Virus record (IMG/VR): IMGVR_UViG_2718217859_000010
Strand: one strand, 5' to 3'
Length of the DNA: 64,000 bases
DNA from: a virus
Taxonomy: Duplodnaviria; Heunggongvirae; Uroviricota; Caudoviricetes
The stretch's first letter is position 1, and the number at the start of each line of letters is the position of its first letter. Of the stretch, positions 6,001-12,000 are shown one piece after another. Made by a program: the position numbers.

Positions 6001-9000
6001 AGGATTAACACCAGTCAAAACCTTTTTATCTACCCCTAATATTATTATATAATGAAATCGTTATAAATGCAAATGATTTTCATTATCATTTAGAGAAAAT
6101 AGCACTTTTTGCTAAATCATCTACTAATTGCTGAATCTCTTCACTTGCAGCCTTTAACGTGCTGGCGGTGTCTGTGATGGTTTGAGTGCACATCTTGGCA
6201 TCGTCCTCAATTAGCTCTAAATCGCTCACCAGAGAGATAAAATCGTCAAGGCTTACATTCACCTTCATTAAGCTAATAACGCATTGAGAGAGCGTGTAAT
6301 CGCATAAATCTGAATAGGCTTGATTTATTCTTGTTTGTAGTGAGATAGTCAGATCTAAAAGTTGTTCCATTGCATTGCTAATATCTTCTTCCATTATGCG
6401 GCTTCTCCTTGTAATGCATCATTAATCATATTCAATACGATGTTAAAAGGTGTCTTGAGCGTCAGCACTTCATCACGATAACGCTCTAATGCTTCGTAGT
6501 CTTCTGTTTCTTTTGCCAGTCGGATTAACTCAGCATAGTTTTTTGCATCAGACAGGATCATCTGAAATAATTGTGTTTCTTGAATATAGCCAATCATTAT
6601 TTTTCCTTTTTCGAATATTTTCATTGGGCGCTTATACATACACCCATCATTTTATTAGTTAGAACGTTTGTTAGAAGCTAATGTATCTTCTAAATGAGCC
6701 ATCAGATCGACTTCCGATGCACCACCTACACAATTATTGAAAGCGTTAAATCCCAAAAAATGATGATAGGAGCTAAACCCTAAAAGTTGCCAACGCTTCA
6801 GAGTGCCATCAGAAATTATTGTTTGTTTTCTTGTTCTTGGGCGAAAGTAAACGCCTGGCATTGACTGGATTATTTCTAATTCTTCATCGCTTAAAGGTGG
6901 AGATTCTGATTCAAGAATAAAGATTATCTCTTCCCCTGGATCGTTATTGGTGTGTGTCGGTGGACGTTGTCTTTTTGAATTGAAATTACTGTTTTTTTCA
7001 ATACGTTTTAAGTTATTCTTTTTCTTTCTTCCCATTTTCCCTCTTTTTATGTGGATTATAAAAACTTGATGCCATTGTTACGATGAATATCGCCATAAAT
7101 GCATTTGCCATATGTATTGCCCGATCTGTTGTTATTGATTGTTTGTGATAAACAATTCAAAATTTTTATTTAACTTCAGAAGACGAAATGTAGTGCTGTT
7201 AATCCCTTCATAATCCAGCACACCGAACGATGTAAAATGATTTAACCAATGATTGATGTGTTGTGCGCTGTAGCCGCCTAAACTACAAAAGCTAACCACT
7301 GTCGGTGGTGAGAACTCTATGTCCAAGACAGCTTTTAAAATGTGGTATCCGCTCTCAGTTATTTCAATAGTTTTGTTTCCTATAGTGATGTTATAAGTCA
7401 TTTATTCTCCTTAGAATGGTATCGAATCGTATATTTCACTTTTTTCTCTTAGAGATATTATCAGATCGTGAAAAGCCTGTTTCTCAAGATAGATATTCTT
7501 TGAATCTAATGCACGTTTTACAAAATCTTCTGTTTCTTCGTGCGGTGGTTTCTTCTTATCAAGGGAAAGAAGCCAAGTAAAAATTTCGGGCCGCTCAGGG
7601 AACTCTGATTCCTGTGTTTCTTCTTCAACGATGATTTCTGAAACATTCAATATTTCATTAGATTCGTTTTCTTTCTCAGAAGGATCAGGTAGTGATGACT
7701 CTCCAGGGGGAGTAATATGTGCATCTGTGAGAGGGAGCGCATTGTAAATCAAAGATGAAATATATGGTTCAGGATGTGGGGATGTTTCTAATAATCCCAT
7801 CTCTTTAAGATCGTTTATCTTACGTTTAATTGTTGATGCTGAAGACTTAAAAATCTTAGCTAATGTTTCGTGACTTTCATAACAATTAAGACCATTTTCC
7901 TGATAACTAAGAAATCTATAATAAAGAACAATGTGCAATAAATCTAAAACCTTACCTTCTGGAAATTCATTAGAGTAAATCTTTGATATATTATCAAACG
8001 TGTTATAGTATTTTGTAAAAGTTGGCTGGTTTATCATTAAAAATCTCCTTATAAATCACGCTTAATGCGCTACTAAAGTGAATGAGGATCACTTACCCTT
8101 TTTTTGTTTGATGTTCTCTGCTGCTTCAGTAATGATTTCTAACATCAAATCACTGACCATAATTTGCCTTTTCTTGGCTTCAGCAAATAAAATCTTGAAA
8201 ATTTCAGGGTCAACGTGTAGGTAAGTGCGTGGAATTGGTTTCTTGGTTTCGCTCATAGTTTTCTCCTTCTCCTGTTATTATTCTTTCTCTGCTCCTGCCT
8301 TACGCAGTTCATCAATAATTTTTAGTGCATCGTCAAAGCATTTTTCACGCTCTGGATAACCACAGCGTCGCGCTGTGTTCCTGTTCATCCTTACTTTAAA
8401 ACGATTAATCTCACCACGTTTCCAGGCTTCTACTACATCCTGTGGTGTGAAATATTTCATTAATTAACCTCCTATTCTATTTGGTTAAAAGAAAAAACAC
8501 CTTGCAAGCCTTGTTGGGCTTCAAAGTGCGGTGCATTGGTTTAATTACTTAGAGGATAAGAATGTTTTCTGTCCCTAATATTACTTTACCACGACTAAAG
8601 GCTTTTGTCAACCCCTAGCCATATAAATATTGATCATTTTCAGTAAGTTATGATATTTCTTAGCAATTCGTGCTCTTCTGTGTAGTGCTATTCTTCATTA
8701 TCCGCTAAAACGCTCTAAAACGCGTTCTAACGAAGTTTTGATAAATACAATACATTCCCTTATGTAGAGGCTGTTTAGCTCGCCTACGGCTTGATTTAAG
8801 CGGTAGAAACTTATTTAACCTTCAACTACTAAAACCATTCTTTCTTTTTTGTTTGTTGTTGGTTGTTGTCTGTGTCTATGTGCTAACATCGCTAACGCGT
8901 AGCACACAAGGTTATTGCACAAGTAAATTTCAATCGTTAGATGGTAGTTAGTTAATTATCGTTCTGCGCACAGCGCAAGACTATTTAGCCTTACGCAAGC

Positions 9001-12000
9001 CGTAGGCTATTTGCACATAGTAGATTACATATTCGTTGTGAGCGGCATTAGCGAACATAGATCTACTAACTAACATCAACAAACAAAAAACTATGTGTTA
9101 TGACAAGCAGTCTAACGACTAACACTCTAACTTGTGCAAGGTTCTGGCGAATGCCAATAGATTAAGGGATAGTCGAAGACTCCCCTAACGGGTATCCCTA
9201 TAATTATTCTTATAAAGATAAAAAAGAATTATATTATATAGTTTAATAGTTAGTTTTATTATTAGTATTATCGTTAGTCTTATTGTGGTTCAAATTGACC
9301 TACCCCCTAGCTCACAGTGACCTACCCCCTAGCTCACAGTGACCTACCGTTACATCCATTTATCACATAACATCTGTGCAATGATCTTCTAAAAGTGTTT
9401 CTTGCTACCAAAATTAAACATCTAAAACAGGCTTAAATTCAATGTAATTGATGATTAATCCCTGTGTAATTCCTACGTAAAAATTCAATGAAAAGTAGCT
9501 TAAAAGTGCAATGTTAGCTTTCTTCACTTTTACATCACTTTCGCTGCGCCTTGTGTAATGCGGCATATAGCGCATCACTGCAAAATTGTTGCTCAATAAA
9601 CGTTCTATCATTTGTCGAACAAGTTTCTTTAATGCAACAAAAAATTATTTTTTCAAAATAAACACACTATTTAATAGCTTGCTAATTTTACCAAAACGTA
9701 ACTACATGATTCTCATGCAAGACGTGTAGTGATAAAGCAGGCTAAATCACCACACTAAAAACCTTCGAATTTCGTAGTGAAAAAAGTCCTTTACACGCCT
9801 AATCAACACGATCAATAATCACTACACACAAATCAACACAGAAGGAAAATGAAAATGGCTAATATTGGATATATAAGGGTGTCGACTGTCCAACAAAACA
9901 CAGACCGTCAATTAGCTGGAGTAACTCTTGATAAAGTCTTTGAAGATAAAGCGTCAGGCAAGAATACCCAGCGCCCACAGTTTGAGGCAATGATGAACTA
10001 TGTGCGGGAAGGTGATGTTGTGCATGTTCACAGTATTGATCGCCTTTGCCGTAATACAGCCGACCTACTGGCAACGGTTGAGCAATTAACAGAGCGCGGC
10101 GTGTCTGTGCATTTCCATAAAGAAGACTTTAAGACAGGGAAGAACTCTCCCGCAGGGAATATGATGCTCACAGTGCTTGCAGCAGTGGCACAAATGGAAC
10201 GTGAAATGATGCTTGAGCGGCAACGTGAGGGGATCGCCGCAGCTAAGGCCGCTGGACGTATAGCAAAACGTGGTAATGGAAAAGCAATTGATCGAGCGGG
10301 AATTGTTGCCGCTCTCGCGAATGGTGGATCAATTCGGAGCGTAGCAAAAGATTTCAGTGTCAGCACACAGACGGTGCAACGTATCAAGAAAGAGCAGGAA
10401 GCGTAATGCCTCCTGATATTTGAGAATTGTCGCTGCGTGGACCTGACGCCGCTGATCTTCGCGTTAAACATTGATCACGTCTGCGCCGATTTCAGATAAA
10501 AAGGTAGCTATTAAGCAATACGTAACTTTTACAATTAGTGAAATTATCTAAAACACAAGTTATATAGATGAGAAAATGAAACATTATCTTTAACAAATCA
10601 AACAAAACAACACATCATCTTGTTGACACCATACAAAGTGAATAGTAAACTATTATATGTGAAAATTTGCATGTTGCGTGCAATAAAAAATAAATGATAC
10701 TTTGCTATTGTTAAATCAATAGGGGGTATCTATGCGCTTTATCTCATCCATTTTAAAAACCTGCAGAACCACAATTACTTTAGCTGTAATTGTTACCATC
10801 ATATACCTCATCTATTTTACCCCTCGAGATAAAATCGATTCACTAGCGATCATCGTTCATGCAATGGCTACATTAACTAAAAAACTTTAATAATTTCACT
10901 ATCAGGCGCATAAACACATCTTTGATCGCTGGATGTGTTATGCGCCTACTGGTGATTCAATCCTTAAGCCATTTCAACTCACTAAGGAGTTTTCTTTCTT
11001 CGTTCTCTCGCTGTTTACGCTCTAGCCAGGCTTTTCCCTCTGGCGTAGACAGGAACTTACGAGCGTGAATCTTGCGGTTATTACGTTTGATAGCTGCAAT
11101 GTTTTTCATCGTGTGCCTCTGTATTCATATGAAAATTAACAAGTTACATACTACACAGGGAGACTACGCATAAAACACAATACAAGTAAAGATACATTTT
11201 CAAGACAATAGGAGCCATAAAGCGCCTTTGATGGTTATACCAAAAAATAAGCGCCGTAGGCGTATCCACTAAAAAGGGCTTTTTCACAAAAGCTATGAAG
11301 TCTTAGCAGTTCTTCTCTTATCAGGCACCCGTTGTACTCCGGTGGACGAAACCGTGCTAGAGCTTGATTCTTTCCCGATCAAGTTAGGTTTTGAAGAGGT
11401 GGGCTTTAATCCACTATTGCACTTAAAACTCTTCCCATCATTTAGCCTGTTTATCCTCTGCAACGTCTCACGACGTGTAGCATCATTGGACACCGCGCCA
11501 GGTGTGGAACATCTTGCTAAGAGTTTTGGTAGAAGGTTTAGAGACGGTGGCACGTCTTCCAGCTTCAAAGGAACTTGTTACGAGGTTGAGCCTGGGAACT
11601 ACTCGCCCATACGTGTTACACTACCAAAGCCCATAACAACGTATAGGCGTTTGTAAGTGATAACAGAAGATACAATTTCTTAGAGAAGTTAAGCTAAGTT
11701 ATTGATTTTCTTGATGGTGCCGATAATAGGAGTCGAACCTACGACCTTCGCATTACGAATTATAAGAATCCGCTTCTAATTCAAAGTATTACCCCATCAA
11801 CACTGCGCTCACACGTCCCACCACATCAAAACATGTAAAGCCTTGCAAGCCATTGTGAGGCCTTATGTGTCTCAGTTTTGTCCCACTACGACCTGCACAG
11901 CAAATAAGAAAATAGCGGTGATATCAAACAGTACAGAAATCTTTTTTCTTTCAAATGGAGAAACTGATTAACCCGTTTAATTGTACTCCTCATGGGTAAT

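What the first reader, a model, noticed from the sequence alone, without database searches (positions are those of the whole stretch)
8461..10406. Replicon-like module in the left island: AT-rich region, 22-bp iteron-like tandem repeats and a small serine recombinase
About 950 bp of non-coding, very AT-rich DNA holds 2.4 exact tandem copies of gacctaccccctagctcacagt, followed by a resolvase/invertase-type serine recombinase gene. AT-rich DNA plus iterons plus a resolvase is the signature of a plasmid origin with a multimer-resolution system, which is unexpected inside a chromosomal island at a tRNA locus. Alternatively the repeats are recombinase or regulator binding sites. The island may derive from a plasmid, a phage-plasmid or a satellite-like replicon.
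Basis: partly seen in the sequence, partly recalled or inferred. Interest (0 to 1): 0.65.

Follow-up and report, generated by a model that had tools for sequence, protein, structure and literature searches.

The report
Replication origin of a satellite-like island
The 22-bp repeats and the AT-rich stretch beside them are most likely the replication origin of a small phage-satellite-like island in E. coli, read by an initiator protein the island encodes 1.3 kb away. The neighbouring recombinase is a separate, optional cassette with its own binding sites.

Summary
TGACCTACCCCCTAGCTCACAG occurs 2.4 times, exactly, at 9296-9348. It lies in a 1.39-kb ORF-poor spacer (8461-9848), not 950 bp. A real small serine recombinase gene follows (9855-10406).

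The window is E. coli 08-00022. The region lies in a ~12.7-kb island integrated at thrW, in tandem with an Stx1a prophage.

In related islands the repeat slot holds one of five repeat families. It always abuts an 86% AT stretch, the most AT-rich 80 bp of the island. The family present matches the N-terminal winged-helix allele of an island protein (7411-8037, minus strand) in 38 of 39 loci. That protein's C-terminal half is conserved. All alleles hit phage replication-initiator families.

The recombinase is 99-100% identical across all repeat families, and other genes replace it in several islands. It has its own cluster of GTAGTGAT half-sites at 9724-9827.

So the reading "iteron origin" is supported. 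"Origin coupled to a resolution system" is only partly supported. "Repeats are recombinase sites" is not supported. This is a new member of a known kind of replicon, the satellite or phage iteron replicon, as shown experimentally for Vibrio PLE. No function was tested.

The parts
9290..9353 (+). Iteron array, family A1. There are three 22-bp-spaced copies of TCAnAnTGACCTACC (9290, 9312, 9334), and TRF.4 exact copies at 9296-9348. The array ends in the palindrome GTGACCTACCGTTAC (9339-9353).
   Evidence: Copy number varies from 2.4 to 4.4 in related loci. The slot holds other repeat families in islands with other initiator alleles.
9199..9285 (.). AT-rich stretch (86% AT) abutting the iterons. 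It is a candidate DNA-unwinding element.
   Evidence: this is the most AT-rich 80-bp window of the island. An AT-rich stretch precedes the repeat slot in every related locus read.
7411..8037 (-). Gene for the initiator-like protein (208 aa). It has a variable N-terminal winged helix, a disordered acidic linker, and a conserved C-terminal part ending ...EIYDSIPF.
   Evidence: It hits PHROG replication-initiation, O-like and DnaD-like families and Pfam HTH_36. Domain alleles are shown. Co-variation with the repeat family is shown.
8461..9848 (.). The whole ORF-poor spacer between the leftward operon and the recombinase gene.
   Evidence: There is no Rfam match and no DnaA box.
8583..8611 (-). 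Promoter-like site (TTGACA, 17 nt, TG-TAAAGT) facing the leftward operon that includes the initiator gene.
   Evidence: consensus match only. The block 8461-8600 is conserved in all aligned loci.
8843..9198 (.). Conserved core of the spacer. It contains a long imperfect inverted repeat (8845-8867 / 9068-9090), a ~139-nt module that is duplicated in other loci, and a hairpin AGGGATA...TATCCCT (9165-9199). Its role is unknown.
   Evidence: Folded as single-stranded DNA, 8835-9100 gives z = -3.1 against shuffles.
9724..9827 (.). res-like cluster of recombinase half-sites: GTGTAGTGATAA at 9724 (+), 9744-9755 (-), GTAGTGA at 9774 (+), and 9816-9827 (-). The last one overlaps the -10 of the recombinase promoter-like site.
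   Evidence: 3 of the 9 GTAGTGA in the 64-kb window fall within 100 bp here. The same layout, with lineage-specific half-sites, lies upstream of the related plasmid recombinase genes.
9790..9819 (+). Promoter-like site (TTTACA, 18 nt, AATAAT) for the recombinase gene.
   Evidence: consensus match only.
9855..10406 (+). Small serine recombinase gene (183 aa as annotated; an alternative ATG lies at 9849). It has a resolvase/invertase-type catalytic domain and a C-terminal HTH.
   Evidence: The cassette bounded at about 9630 and 10472/10959 is replaced by other genes in several islands.
8089..8460 (-). Two small ORFs (60 aa at 8278-8460 and 55 aa at 8089-8256) at the head of the operon, between the spacer and the initiator gene. 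Function unknown.
   Evidence: no family hit. The 55-aa ORF has two alleles that do not track the repeat family.
11713..11760 (.). 48-bp exact copy of the 3' part of thrW. It marks the junction between the Stx1a prophage and the island, that is, the island's right attachment site.
   Evidence: The same island lies alone at thrW in strain CAVP888 and at tRNA-Gly in strain 503025.

Best explanation
The repeats are the iterons of the vegetative replication origin of a ~12.7-kb island that resembles a phage satellite. The island is integrated at thrW.

Proposed sequence of events:
1. The island-encoded 208-aa protein (7411-8037, minus strand) binds the three 22-bp-spaced repeats at 9290-9353 through its N-terminal winged helix.
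2. The adjoining 86% AT stretch (9199-9285) melts.
3. The protein's conserved C-terminal part recruits host replication proteins. This part ends in an SSB-tail-like D-x-IPF. The island itself encodes no helicase, loader or primase.

The serine recombinase is a separate, optional cassette.
- It most likely binds the half-site cluster at 9724-9827 just upstream of its own gene.
- There it would repress its own promoter and resolve island multimers.

Shown here: the anatomy, the co-variation, the family matches, and the independence of the recombinase from the repeats.

Inferred: binding, melting, replisome recruitment, resolution, and that the island replicates at all.
For: 1. The repeat is exact and is the strongest tandem repeat in the window. 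Its copy number varies among islands.

2. At the same slot, next to an AT-rich stretch, related islands carry one of five repeat families:
- A1, 22 bp.
- A2, 22-23 bp.
- GTAAC-N5-GTTAC palindromes.
- C, TAACAnnnTTCTGTnGGGGT.
- D, GGAAAyCATTTCCTAGGTAG.

3. The protein has five sharply different N-terminal alleles and a near-identical C-terminal ~95 aa. The cognate repeat family is present in 38 of 39 loci.
- These include loci fetched by protein identity as a forward test.
- Allele A keeps A1 repeats even where the C-terminal domain and the rest of the spacer are different.
- The closely related allele A2 has a related but distinct 22-bp unit.

4. Markers lying between the gene and the repeats do not track the repeat family. 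These are the alleles of the 55-aa ORF and the indels in the spacer. So linkage alone does not explain the association.

5. Every allele hits phrog_270 and other replication-initiation, O-like or DnaD-like families (E 1e-9 to 1e-5). None hits a repressor or terminase family.

6. The model shows a confident winged helix at residues 30-105 and a disordered linker.

7. The same pattern was shown by experiment to define the replicon of Vibrio PLE satellites. There the DNA-binding domain co-varies with an intergenic iteron origin and the C-terminal domain is conserved (PMC8263062).

8. The recombinase is invariant across repeat families and is dispensable. It has its own half-site cluster, paralleled upstream of its plasmid relatives.
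Against: - Nothing was tested functionally.
- The initiator assignment rests on weak profile matches. Pfam HTH_36 is below its curated cut-off for the window protein, and the public annotation is "transcriptional regulator".
- Fold search gives generic MarR-like winged helices. RepA_N initiators appear among the hits, but all have E > 1e-3.
- A repressor-operator pair or a small-terminase/packaging-site pair would give the same co-variation.
- The origin is not inside or 3' of the initiator gene, as it is in lambda or PICIs. No DnaA box is present.
- One locus (L044) has allele A2 with only a D array.
- Several loci carry extra non-cognate arrays (L041-L043, L046).
- The palindromes assigned to allele B also occur with other alleles.
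- The loci are related, so 38 of 39 overstates the number of independent events.
Confidence: 0.7

Rival explanations
1. The winged-helix protein is a transcription regulator, either an immunity repressor or an activator. The repeats would then be its operators, controlling the divergent promoters of the spacer. Specificity would be swapped among islands as in lambdoid immunity regions.
For: Public annotation calls the protein an HTH protein or transcriptional regulator. The fold matches are mostly MarR-type regulators. Co-variation of a DNA-binding domain with its sites is equally expected for repressor-operator pairs.
Against: - The repeats lie about 700 bp from the leftward promoter-like site and about 450 bp from the recombinase promoter-like site. 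They do not overlap either one.
- They abut the most AT-rich stretch of the island.
- All five alleles hit replication-initiator PHROGs and no repressor family.
- The conserved C-terminal domain follows a long disordered acidic linker. A C-terminal D-x-IPF is kept in two unrelated C-terminal domains. This fits a recruitment role better than a repressor.
Confidence: 0.15
2. The repeats are a packaging recognition site (like lambda cosB R sites). The winged-helix protein would be a small-terminase-like adaptor that hands island DNA to a helper phage's large terminase.
For: The island carries a capsid E-like gene, a tape-measure-like gene and a Dit-like gene but no terminase or portal. It must therefore borrow packaging functions. 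From my own knowledge, not tested here, lambda gpNu1 has an N-terminal winged helix that binds repeated sites and a C-terminal partner-binding part.
Against: No allele hits any small-terminase family, and all hit initiator families. The neighbouring Stx1a prophage shares no cos-like or other DNA with the island. Five exchangeable specificities are easier to explain for origins, through incompatibility or nuclease evasion.
Confidence: 0.06
3. The repeats are binding or crossover sites of the adjacent serine recombinase (a res or inversion site). The AT-rich DNA would then be incidental.
For: The repeats are close to the recombinase gene (about 500 bp). Small serine recombinases usually act next to their own genes.
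Against: - The recombinase is 99-100% identical in islands with five different repeat families.
- Islands lacking it keep the repeats.
- A separate cluster of GTAGTGAT half-sites lies directly upstream of the gene. It is mirrored, with co-varying half-sites, upstream of related plasmid recombinases.
- No inversion polymorphism was seen in 35 loci.
Confidence: 0.03
4. The repeat is a functionless slippage duplication in junk spacer DNA of a decaying prophage remnant.
For: Copy number is polymorphic. The A1 unit resembles the conserved right boundary sequence TAGyTCACAGTGACCTACC seen in all families, so it could have arisen by duplication of that boundary.
Against: The fixed slot, the five alternative arrays and the near-perfect match to the protein's DNA-binding allele are not expected for junk. 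The island is intact and widespread. The region matches in 718 of 5426 complete E. coli genomes, and most of it is present in 171.
Confidence: 0.04

Closest known systems
PLE satellites of Vibrio cholerae: RepA plus an intergenic iteron origin (PMC8263062)
   Same: The initiator is encoded away from an origin that lies in a non-coding region. The N-terminal DNA-binding domain co-varies with the iterons while the C-terminal domain is conserved. Modules are swapped between islands.
   Different: There is no detectable sequence relationship. PLE RepA belongs to the RepA_N family and its iterons are about 30 bp and semi-palindromic. PLE integrates with a large serine recombinase. The E. coli island uses a tyrosine integrase and shows at least five specificities rather than two. 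Function is demonstrated for PLE but not here.
Lambdoid phage O protein and ori-lambda (established knowledge)
   Same: The protein has an N-terminal winged-helix domain of variable specificity that binds phased repeats next to an AT-rich stretch, and a C-terminal domain for partner recruitment. PHROG O-like families are hit.
   Different: Lambda's iterons lie inside the O gene and O works with the loader P. Here the repeats are 1.3 kb upstream of the gene in a spacer, and there is no P-like gene. The protein is shorter and ends in an SSB-tail-like motif. The neighbouring Stx1a prophage has its own O-like gene with internal iterons at 54826-54930. That gene is only marginally similar.
PICI replicons of Gram-negative bacteria (PMC6092414)
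   Same: Both are tRNA- or site-specific islands of about 10-15 kb with an integrase and an autonomous iteron origin with an AT-rich melting region.
   Different: PICIs have a pri-rep (primase/helicase-type) initiator. Their origin lies immediately 3' of it, with two iteron sets flanking the AT-rich region, and they carry alpA. None of these features was found here. Here the iterons lie on one side of the AT stretch.
Iteron plasmids (pSC101, R6K, F, RK2 class; review PMC4980987 listed)
   Same: Both have about 22-bp direct repeats, an adjacent AT-rich unwinding element and a Rep protein with a winged helix. Some plasmids pair this with a serine resolvase for multimer resolution.
   Different: There are no DnaA boxes. 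The Rep has a single winged helix rather than two. The element is an integrated island, found on chromosomes at 858 of 859 places.
Tn3/gamma-delta resolvase with its res site, and small-plasmid resolvases
   Same: The 183-aa serine recombinase matches Tn3 and gamma-delta resolvase at E 1e-27. It has a ~104-bp cluster of inverted and direct half-sites immediately upstream of its gene, overlapping its promoter-like site. Its closest relatives outside the islands, at 65-70% identity, sit on 2-6 kb plasmids.
   Different: No transposase partner is present. The three-subsite architecture could not be resolved. The recombinase is almost as similar to Gin/Hin invertases (E 1e-24).

Membership tests
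Iteron-type replication origin (general) | Several phased direct repeats of about 17-22 bp | tested here: met
   Three copies at 22-bp spacing, 9290-9353. Related loci have 2.4-4.4 A1/A2 copies or about five units of the other families.
Iteron-type replication origin (general) | Adjacent AT-rich unwinding region | tested here: met
   9199-9285 is 86% AT and is the AT maximum of the island.
Iteron-type replication origin (general) | A cognate initiator whose DNA-binding specificity matches the repeats | tested here: met
   Met by co-variation only. The cognate array is present in 38 of 39 loci across five alleles. Binding was not tested.
Iteron-type replication origin (general) | Supports initiator-dependent autonomous replication | not testable with these tools
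   This needs an origin-plasmid maintenance or copy-number assay.
Iteron plasmids of Enterobacteria | DnaA box(es) in the origin | tested here: not met
   There is no TTWTNCACA in 8461-9848.
Lambda-type O/ori module | Iterons located inside the initiator gene, and a P-type helicase loader gene downstream | tested here: not met
   The gene 7411-8037 holds no repeat array. The downstream ORFs have no family hits.
PICI (Gram-negative type) | alpA, a pri-rep initiator, and an origin 3' of rep with iterons on both sides of the AT region | tested here: not met
   No AlpA, primase or helicase domain appears in any island ORF scanned. The origin lies 1.3 kb 5' of the gene, and the iterons are on one side only.
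PICI (Gram-negative type) | Integrase, specific attachment site, and a size of about 10-15 kb | tested here: met
   A tyrosine integrase lies at the left end. Direct repeats of the thrW 3' part flank about 12.7 kb. The same island lies alone at thrW or at tRNA-Gly in other strains.
Phage satellite (general) | Induction, packaging and transfer depend on a helper phage | not testable with these tools
   The gene content is suggestive: capsid E-like, tape-measure-like and Dit-like genes but no portal or terminase. No helper was identified. The neighbouring Stx1a prophage shares no DNA with the island.
Resolvase/res system (Tn3-like or plasmid) | Small serine recombinase with an intact catalytic domain and an HTH | tested here: met
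   Pfam Resolvase at E 9e-39 plus an HTH. The GYIRVST motif is present. It matches Tn3 and gamma-delta resolvases at E 1e-27.
Resolvase/res system (Tn3-like or plasmid) | Multi-subsite res next to the gene | tested here: inconclusive
   Four half-sites lie in 104 bp at 9724-9827, and the layout is paralleled in three plasmid relatives. The subsite structure and the crossover point were not resolved.
Hin/Gin-type DNA invertase | An invertible segment flanked by inverted crossover sites, found in both orientations | tested here: not met
   No inverted arrangement of the spacer or the gene was seen in 35 related loci. An apparent flipped 183-aa ORF in L041/L042 is an unrelated gene.

The most novel reading that the evidence does not exclude
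The island may belong to an uncharacterised family of E. coli phage satellites. The family is widespread: the region matches in about 13% of complete E. coli genomes.
- Its members carry their own capsid-like and tail-tip-like genes.
- Their replicon consists only of a one-winged-helix initiator and an intergenic origin.
- The initiator would load the host replisome through a mimic of the SSB C-terminal tail (D-x-IPF). This tail is kept on two unrelated C-terminal domains.
- The initiator-iteron pair has diversified into at least five specificities, and some islands stack several arrays. Possible drivers are incompatibility between co-resident islands or origin-directed nucleases of helper phages.
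Probability: 0.3. Interest if true: 0.65.

Novelty: new member of a known kind. Interest (0 to 1): 0.45.

Why it matters
The work assigns a concrete, testable function to a 1.4-kb unannotated spacer. It also assigns one to a protein that databases call only a "helix-turn-helix transcriptional regulator". Both sit in an island whose spacer-recombinase region matches in 718 of 5426 complete E. coli genomes, with most of it present in 171. Here the island lies beside a Shiga-toxin prophage.

If the replicon is confirmed, the family offers a second natural system, after Vibrio PLE, for studying how initiator-origin specificities are swapped in phage parasites. It also offers a minimal initiator with a possible SSB-tail mimic.

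For genome annotation, the result shows that the recombinase and the repeats are separate modules and should not be read as one plasmid-derived unit.

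Tried and rejected
1. Invertible DNA switch driven by the recombinase. No inversion was found in 35 loci. An apparent flipped gene in L041/L042 is an unrelated 183-aa ORF.

2. Structured RNA in the spacer. Rfam gives no match at the gathering threshold and only noise at E <= 5. The long inverted repeat folds only modestly better than shuffles.

3. Mimicry of a helper phage origin.
- The island repeat shares the 11-mer CTACCCCCTAG with the iteron array inside the O-like gene of the neighbouring Stx1a prophage.
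- In the phage, the full motif is in one of the five units, a one-mismatch version is in a second, and both fall in the variable part of the unit.
- The two proteins are barely similar.
- None of the five island arrays matches any of 50,697 phage records.

4. A shared cos site or any other DNA shared with the Stx1a prophage. None was found.

5. DnaA boxes in the spacer. None were found.

6. Plasmid origin of the region. There are only two plasmid-database hits, and one of those is a 4.9-Mb record that is evidently a chromosome.

7. Fold search of the initiator model. It returned only a generic winged helix and was not decisive.

8. A search with the conserved C-terminal half to find further N-terminal alleles. 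It returned only fragments of known alleles.

9. Literature search for the island family, by topic and by protein accession numbers. Nothing was found. This is not proof that the family is undescribed.

Full report
**Where the window comes from**

The region 8461-10406 is 100% identical to the chromosome of E. coli 08-00022 (NZ_CP013662.1, reverse strand). Annotation and repeat mapping show two elements in tandem at tRNA-Thr thrW (62557-62632).
- An Stx1a lambdoid prophage spans about 11760-62555.
- To its left lies a separate island of about 12.7 kb.
- The island is bounded by a 48-bp exact copy of the thrW 3' part (11713-11760) and by a weaker 29-bp copy about 1 kb left of the window.
- A tyrosine integrase gene runs across the window's left edge.

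The same island occurs alone at thrW in strain CAVP888. It occurs at tRNA-Gly, with another integrase, in strain 503025. The finding therefore belongs to the island and not to the prophage.

**The observation**

The 22-bp unit occurs 2.4 times, exactly, at 9296-9348. Its TRF score of 106 is the highest in the window. In register, three copies of TCAnAnTGACCTACC sit 22 bp apart at 9290, 9312 and 9334.

The ORF-poor spacer is 1.39 kb (8461-9848), not 950 bp. Overall it is only a little more AT-rich than the island, 64.8% against 60.3%. However, 9199-9285, which abuts the repeats, is 86% AT and is the AT maximum of the island.

The recombinase is real. It matches Pfam Resolvase at E 9e-39 and has an HTH. 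RefSeq places the start at 9855.

**The island's content**

On the minus strand, reading leftward from the spacer, the island encodes:
- two small ORFs;
- a 208-aa protein (7411-8037) with an HTH_36-type winged helix that hits eleven PHROG families, all of them replication-initiation, O-like, DnaD-like or replisome-organiser families, or HTH DNA-binding proteins in PHROG's nucleotide-metabolism category;
- several ORFs with no family hit;
- a lambda-E-type capsid protein;
- a tape-measure-like protein;
- a Dit-like protein.

No portal, terminase, primase, helicase or AlpA was found. The gene content is that of a satellite-like or strongly reduced phage element.

**Comparative test of the repeats**

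I collected related loci in four ways:
- from complete E. coli genomes;
- from one scan of species-representative genomes;
- from exact-pattern scans of viral and metagenome contigs, using a conserved 24-mer right of the repeats;
- from look-ups by protein identity.

Alignments show a fixed slot between an AT-rich stretch and a conserved right flank (...GTGACCTACCGTTACATCC...). The slot holds one of five repeat families:

| Family | Unit | Copies |
|---|---|---|
| A1 (the window's) | 22 bp, TGACCTACCCCCTAGCTCACAG | 2.4-4.4 |
| A2 | GTCATCGTGACCGAC(A)CCCCCCG, 22-23 bp | 2.4-4.4 |
| Palindromes | GTAAC-N5-GTTAC | about 5 |
| C | TAACAnnnTTCTGTnGGGGT | about 5 |
| D | GGAAAyCATTTCCTAGGTAG | 5-6 |

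The 208-aa protein has five sharply different N-terminal alleles of about 100 aa (A, A2, B, C, D). They are joined to a near-identical C-terminal part of about 95 aa.

In the 39 loci where both could be read, the cognate array is present in 38.

Three points make simple linkage an unlikely explanation.
- Markers lying between the gene and the repeats do not track the repeat family. These are the two alleles of the 55-aa ORF and the 166-nt and 139-nt indels.
- Allele A keeps A1 repeats in islands where both the protein's C-terminal domain and the spacer core are entirely different (L037-L039, L046-L048).
- Allele A2 differs from A mainly in the predicted recognition helix and wing. It goes with a related but distinct 22-bp unit.

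The look-ups by protein were made after the hypothesis was formed, and they confirmed it.

All five alleles independently hit phrog_270 and other initiator families. The AlphaFold model has a confident winged helix at residues 30-105 and a disordered acidic linker at 112-153. Fold search is not decisive. It returns MarR-like regulators, with RepA_N initiators (4pql, 5kbj, 4pt7) among the hits, all at E > 1e-3.

**Caveats on the comparison**

- The loci are related, so the permutation result (0 of 200,000 shuffles reach the observed match) is not a probability.
- One locus (L044) has allele A2 with only a D array. It could have arisen by deletion between the duplicated AT-rich blocks seen in L043.
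- L041-L043 and L046 stack non-cognate arrays beside the cognate one.
- The GTAAC-N5-GTTAC palindromes assigned to allele B also occur with other alleles. One such palindrome ends every array, including the window's at 9339-9353. They may therefore bind something common to all islands.

**The recombinase**

The recombinase is 99-100% identical in islands with every repeat family. In L006, L015, L016, L023, L026, L033, L041 and L042, the segment from about 9630 to 10472/10959 is replaced by unrelated small genes. The initiator is retained wherever the contig reaches it, and the repeats are retained in all. The repeats are therefore not its sites, and it is not a required part of the replicon.

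Directly upstream of its gene, four copies of GT(A/G)GTGA(T/A) in both orientations lie within 104 bp (9724-9827). Only nine GTAGTGA occur in the whole 64-kb window. The last copy overlaps the -10 of the promoter-like site at 9790-9819.

Its nearest relatives outside the island family, at 65-70% identity, are on 2-6 kb enterobacterial plasmids. Each has the same layout upstream of its gene, with its own half-site: GTAGTAAT, GTATCGAT or GTAGTGAT. This looks like a self-contained resolvase-plus-res cassette.

By sequence it is about equally close to Tn3 and gamma-delta resolvases and to Gin/Hin invertases. However, no inversion polymorphism was found in 35 loci. Multimer resolution with autoregulation is the most likely role. 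That role is inferred, not shown.

**Mechanism proposed**

After excision, the leftward operon expresses the initiator from the promoter-like site at 8583-8611. Its winged helix binds the three phased iterons, and the adjacent AT stretch melts. The conserved C-terminal part brings in host functions, since the island has no helicase, loader or primase.

That part ends ...EIYDSIPF. An unrelated alternative C-terminal domain in other islands ends ...VYEDFDIPF. Both resemble the SSB C-terminal hexapeptide DDDIPF, which mediates SSB's contacts with replication proteins (PMC5872125). That the tail acts this way is a conjecture.

**Comparison with known systems**

The pattern of a variable DNA-binding domain, a conserved C-terminal domain and an intergenic iteron origin was shown by experiment to define the replicon of Vibrio PLE satellites (PMC8263062). 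The present case works like that but is not homologous by any test made here.

It differs from three other systems.
- In lambda, the iterons lie inside O and a P loader is present.
- Gram-negative PICIs have a pri-rep initiator and an origin 3' of it with iterons on both sides of the AT region (PMC6092414).
- Enterobacterial iteron plasmids have DnaA boxes and a Rep with two winged helices.

I found no paper describing this island family.

**Verdict**

- The "iteron origin" reading is supported by comparative evidence, at about 0.7 confidence.
- The "resolvase as part of the origin module" reading is only partly supported.
- The "recombinase sites" alternative is rejected.
- The finding is a new member of a known kind of replicon. 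It has some features worth testing: at least five specificities, stacked arrays, and an SSB-tail-like ending.

Noticed in passing
window 7411-7440 (C-terminal codons of the minus-strand gene 7411-8037); alternative domain in P0097/P0105 (L037, L046): The initiator-like protein ends ...EIYDSIPF. An unrelated alternative C-terminal domain in other islands ends ...VYEDFDIPF. Both resemble the SSB C-terminal tip DDDIPF, and I-P-F is invariant in the alignment.
   Followed up: partly
window 5094-6085: A second stretch of about 1 kb in the island has no convincing ORF on the operon strand. It lies between the capsid module and the upstream small genes and includes 80%-AT windows near 5631 and 6041. 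It could hold a packaging site or an RNA gene.
   Followed up: no
window 8843-9198: The spacer core is nearly identical in most islands with the common spacer type, even where the initiator protein is only about 50-65% identical. It contains a long imperfect inverted repeat (8845-8867 / 9068-9090) and a ~139-nt module (AGGTTATTGCAC...GCGCACAGCGCA...) that is single here but duplicated in L003, L004 and L006. Function unknown.
   Followed up: partly
L043 and L046 (also L041, L042): Some islands stack two or three different repeat arrays in tandem, each with its own AT-rich block (for example A2 + D, or A1 + D + C). L044 has only a non-cognate array. The stacking may allow use of more than one initiator, or it may reflect recombination between co-resident islands.
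   Followed up: partly
window 54826-54930 (inside the O-like gene, about 54377-55195, minus strand): An iteron-like array of about 4.6 units of 21-24 bp lies within the Stx1a prophage's replication gene. One unit contains the same 11-mer CTACCCCCTAG as the island repeat, and a second contains a one-mismatch version. I judge this coincidental.
   Followed up: yes
window 512-4493 (minus strand): The island encodes a lambda-E-type capsid protein (3465-4493), a tape-measure-like 613-aa protein (1237-3078) and a Dit-like protein (512-1189), but no portal, protease or terminase. The capsid protein is unrelated to that of the neighbouring prophage. At best it is 25% identical to capsid proteins of large E. 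coli and Klebsiella myoviruses.
   Followed up: partly
L049 (NZ_AP027492.1, 1952 bp); also NZ_CP130129.1 and NZ_CP116175.1: Circular "plasmids" of about 2 kb have a recombinase about 69% identical to the island's as their only annotated gene. No ColE1-type RNA was found by Rfam. How they replicate is unclear.
   Followed up: partly
window 11992-15256: An IS66-family element (tnpA, tnpB and transposase at 12233-14848) splits a GNAT acetyltransferase gene into two fragments at the end of the Stx1a prophage, next to ompT.
   Followed up: no
L006 (JAEWTL010000083.1): A contig labelled as a Bacillota metagenome-assembled genome carries this E. coli island at about 95-100% protein identity. It is probably mis-binned or a contaminant.
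   Followed up: no
window 19250-19447, 48191-48408, 56016-56204: Rfam matches in the Stx1a prophage: IS009, STnc100, C4 antisense RNA and isrK. These are ordinary for lambdoid prophages of enterohaemorrhagic E. coli.
   Followed up: no
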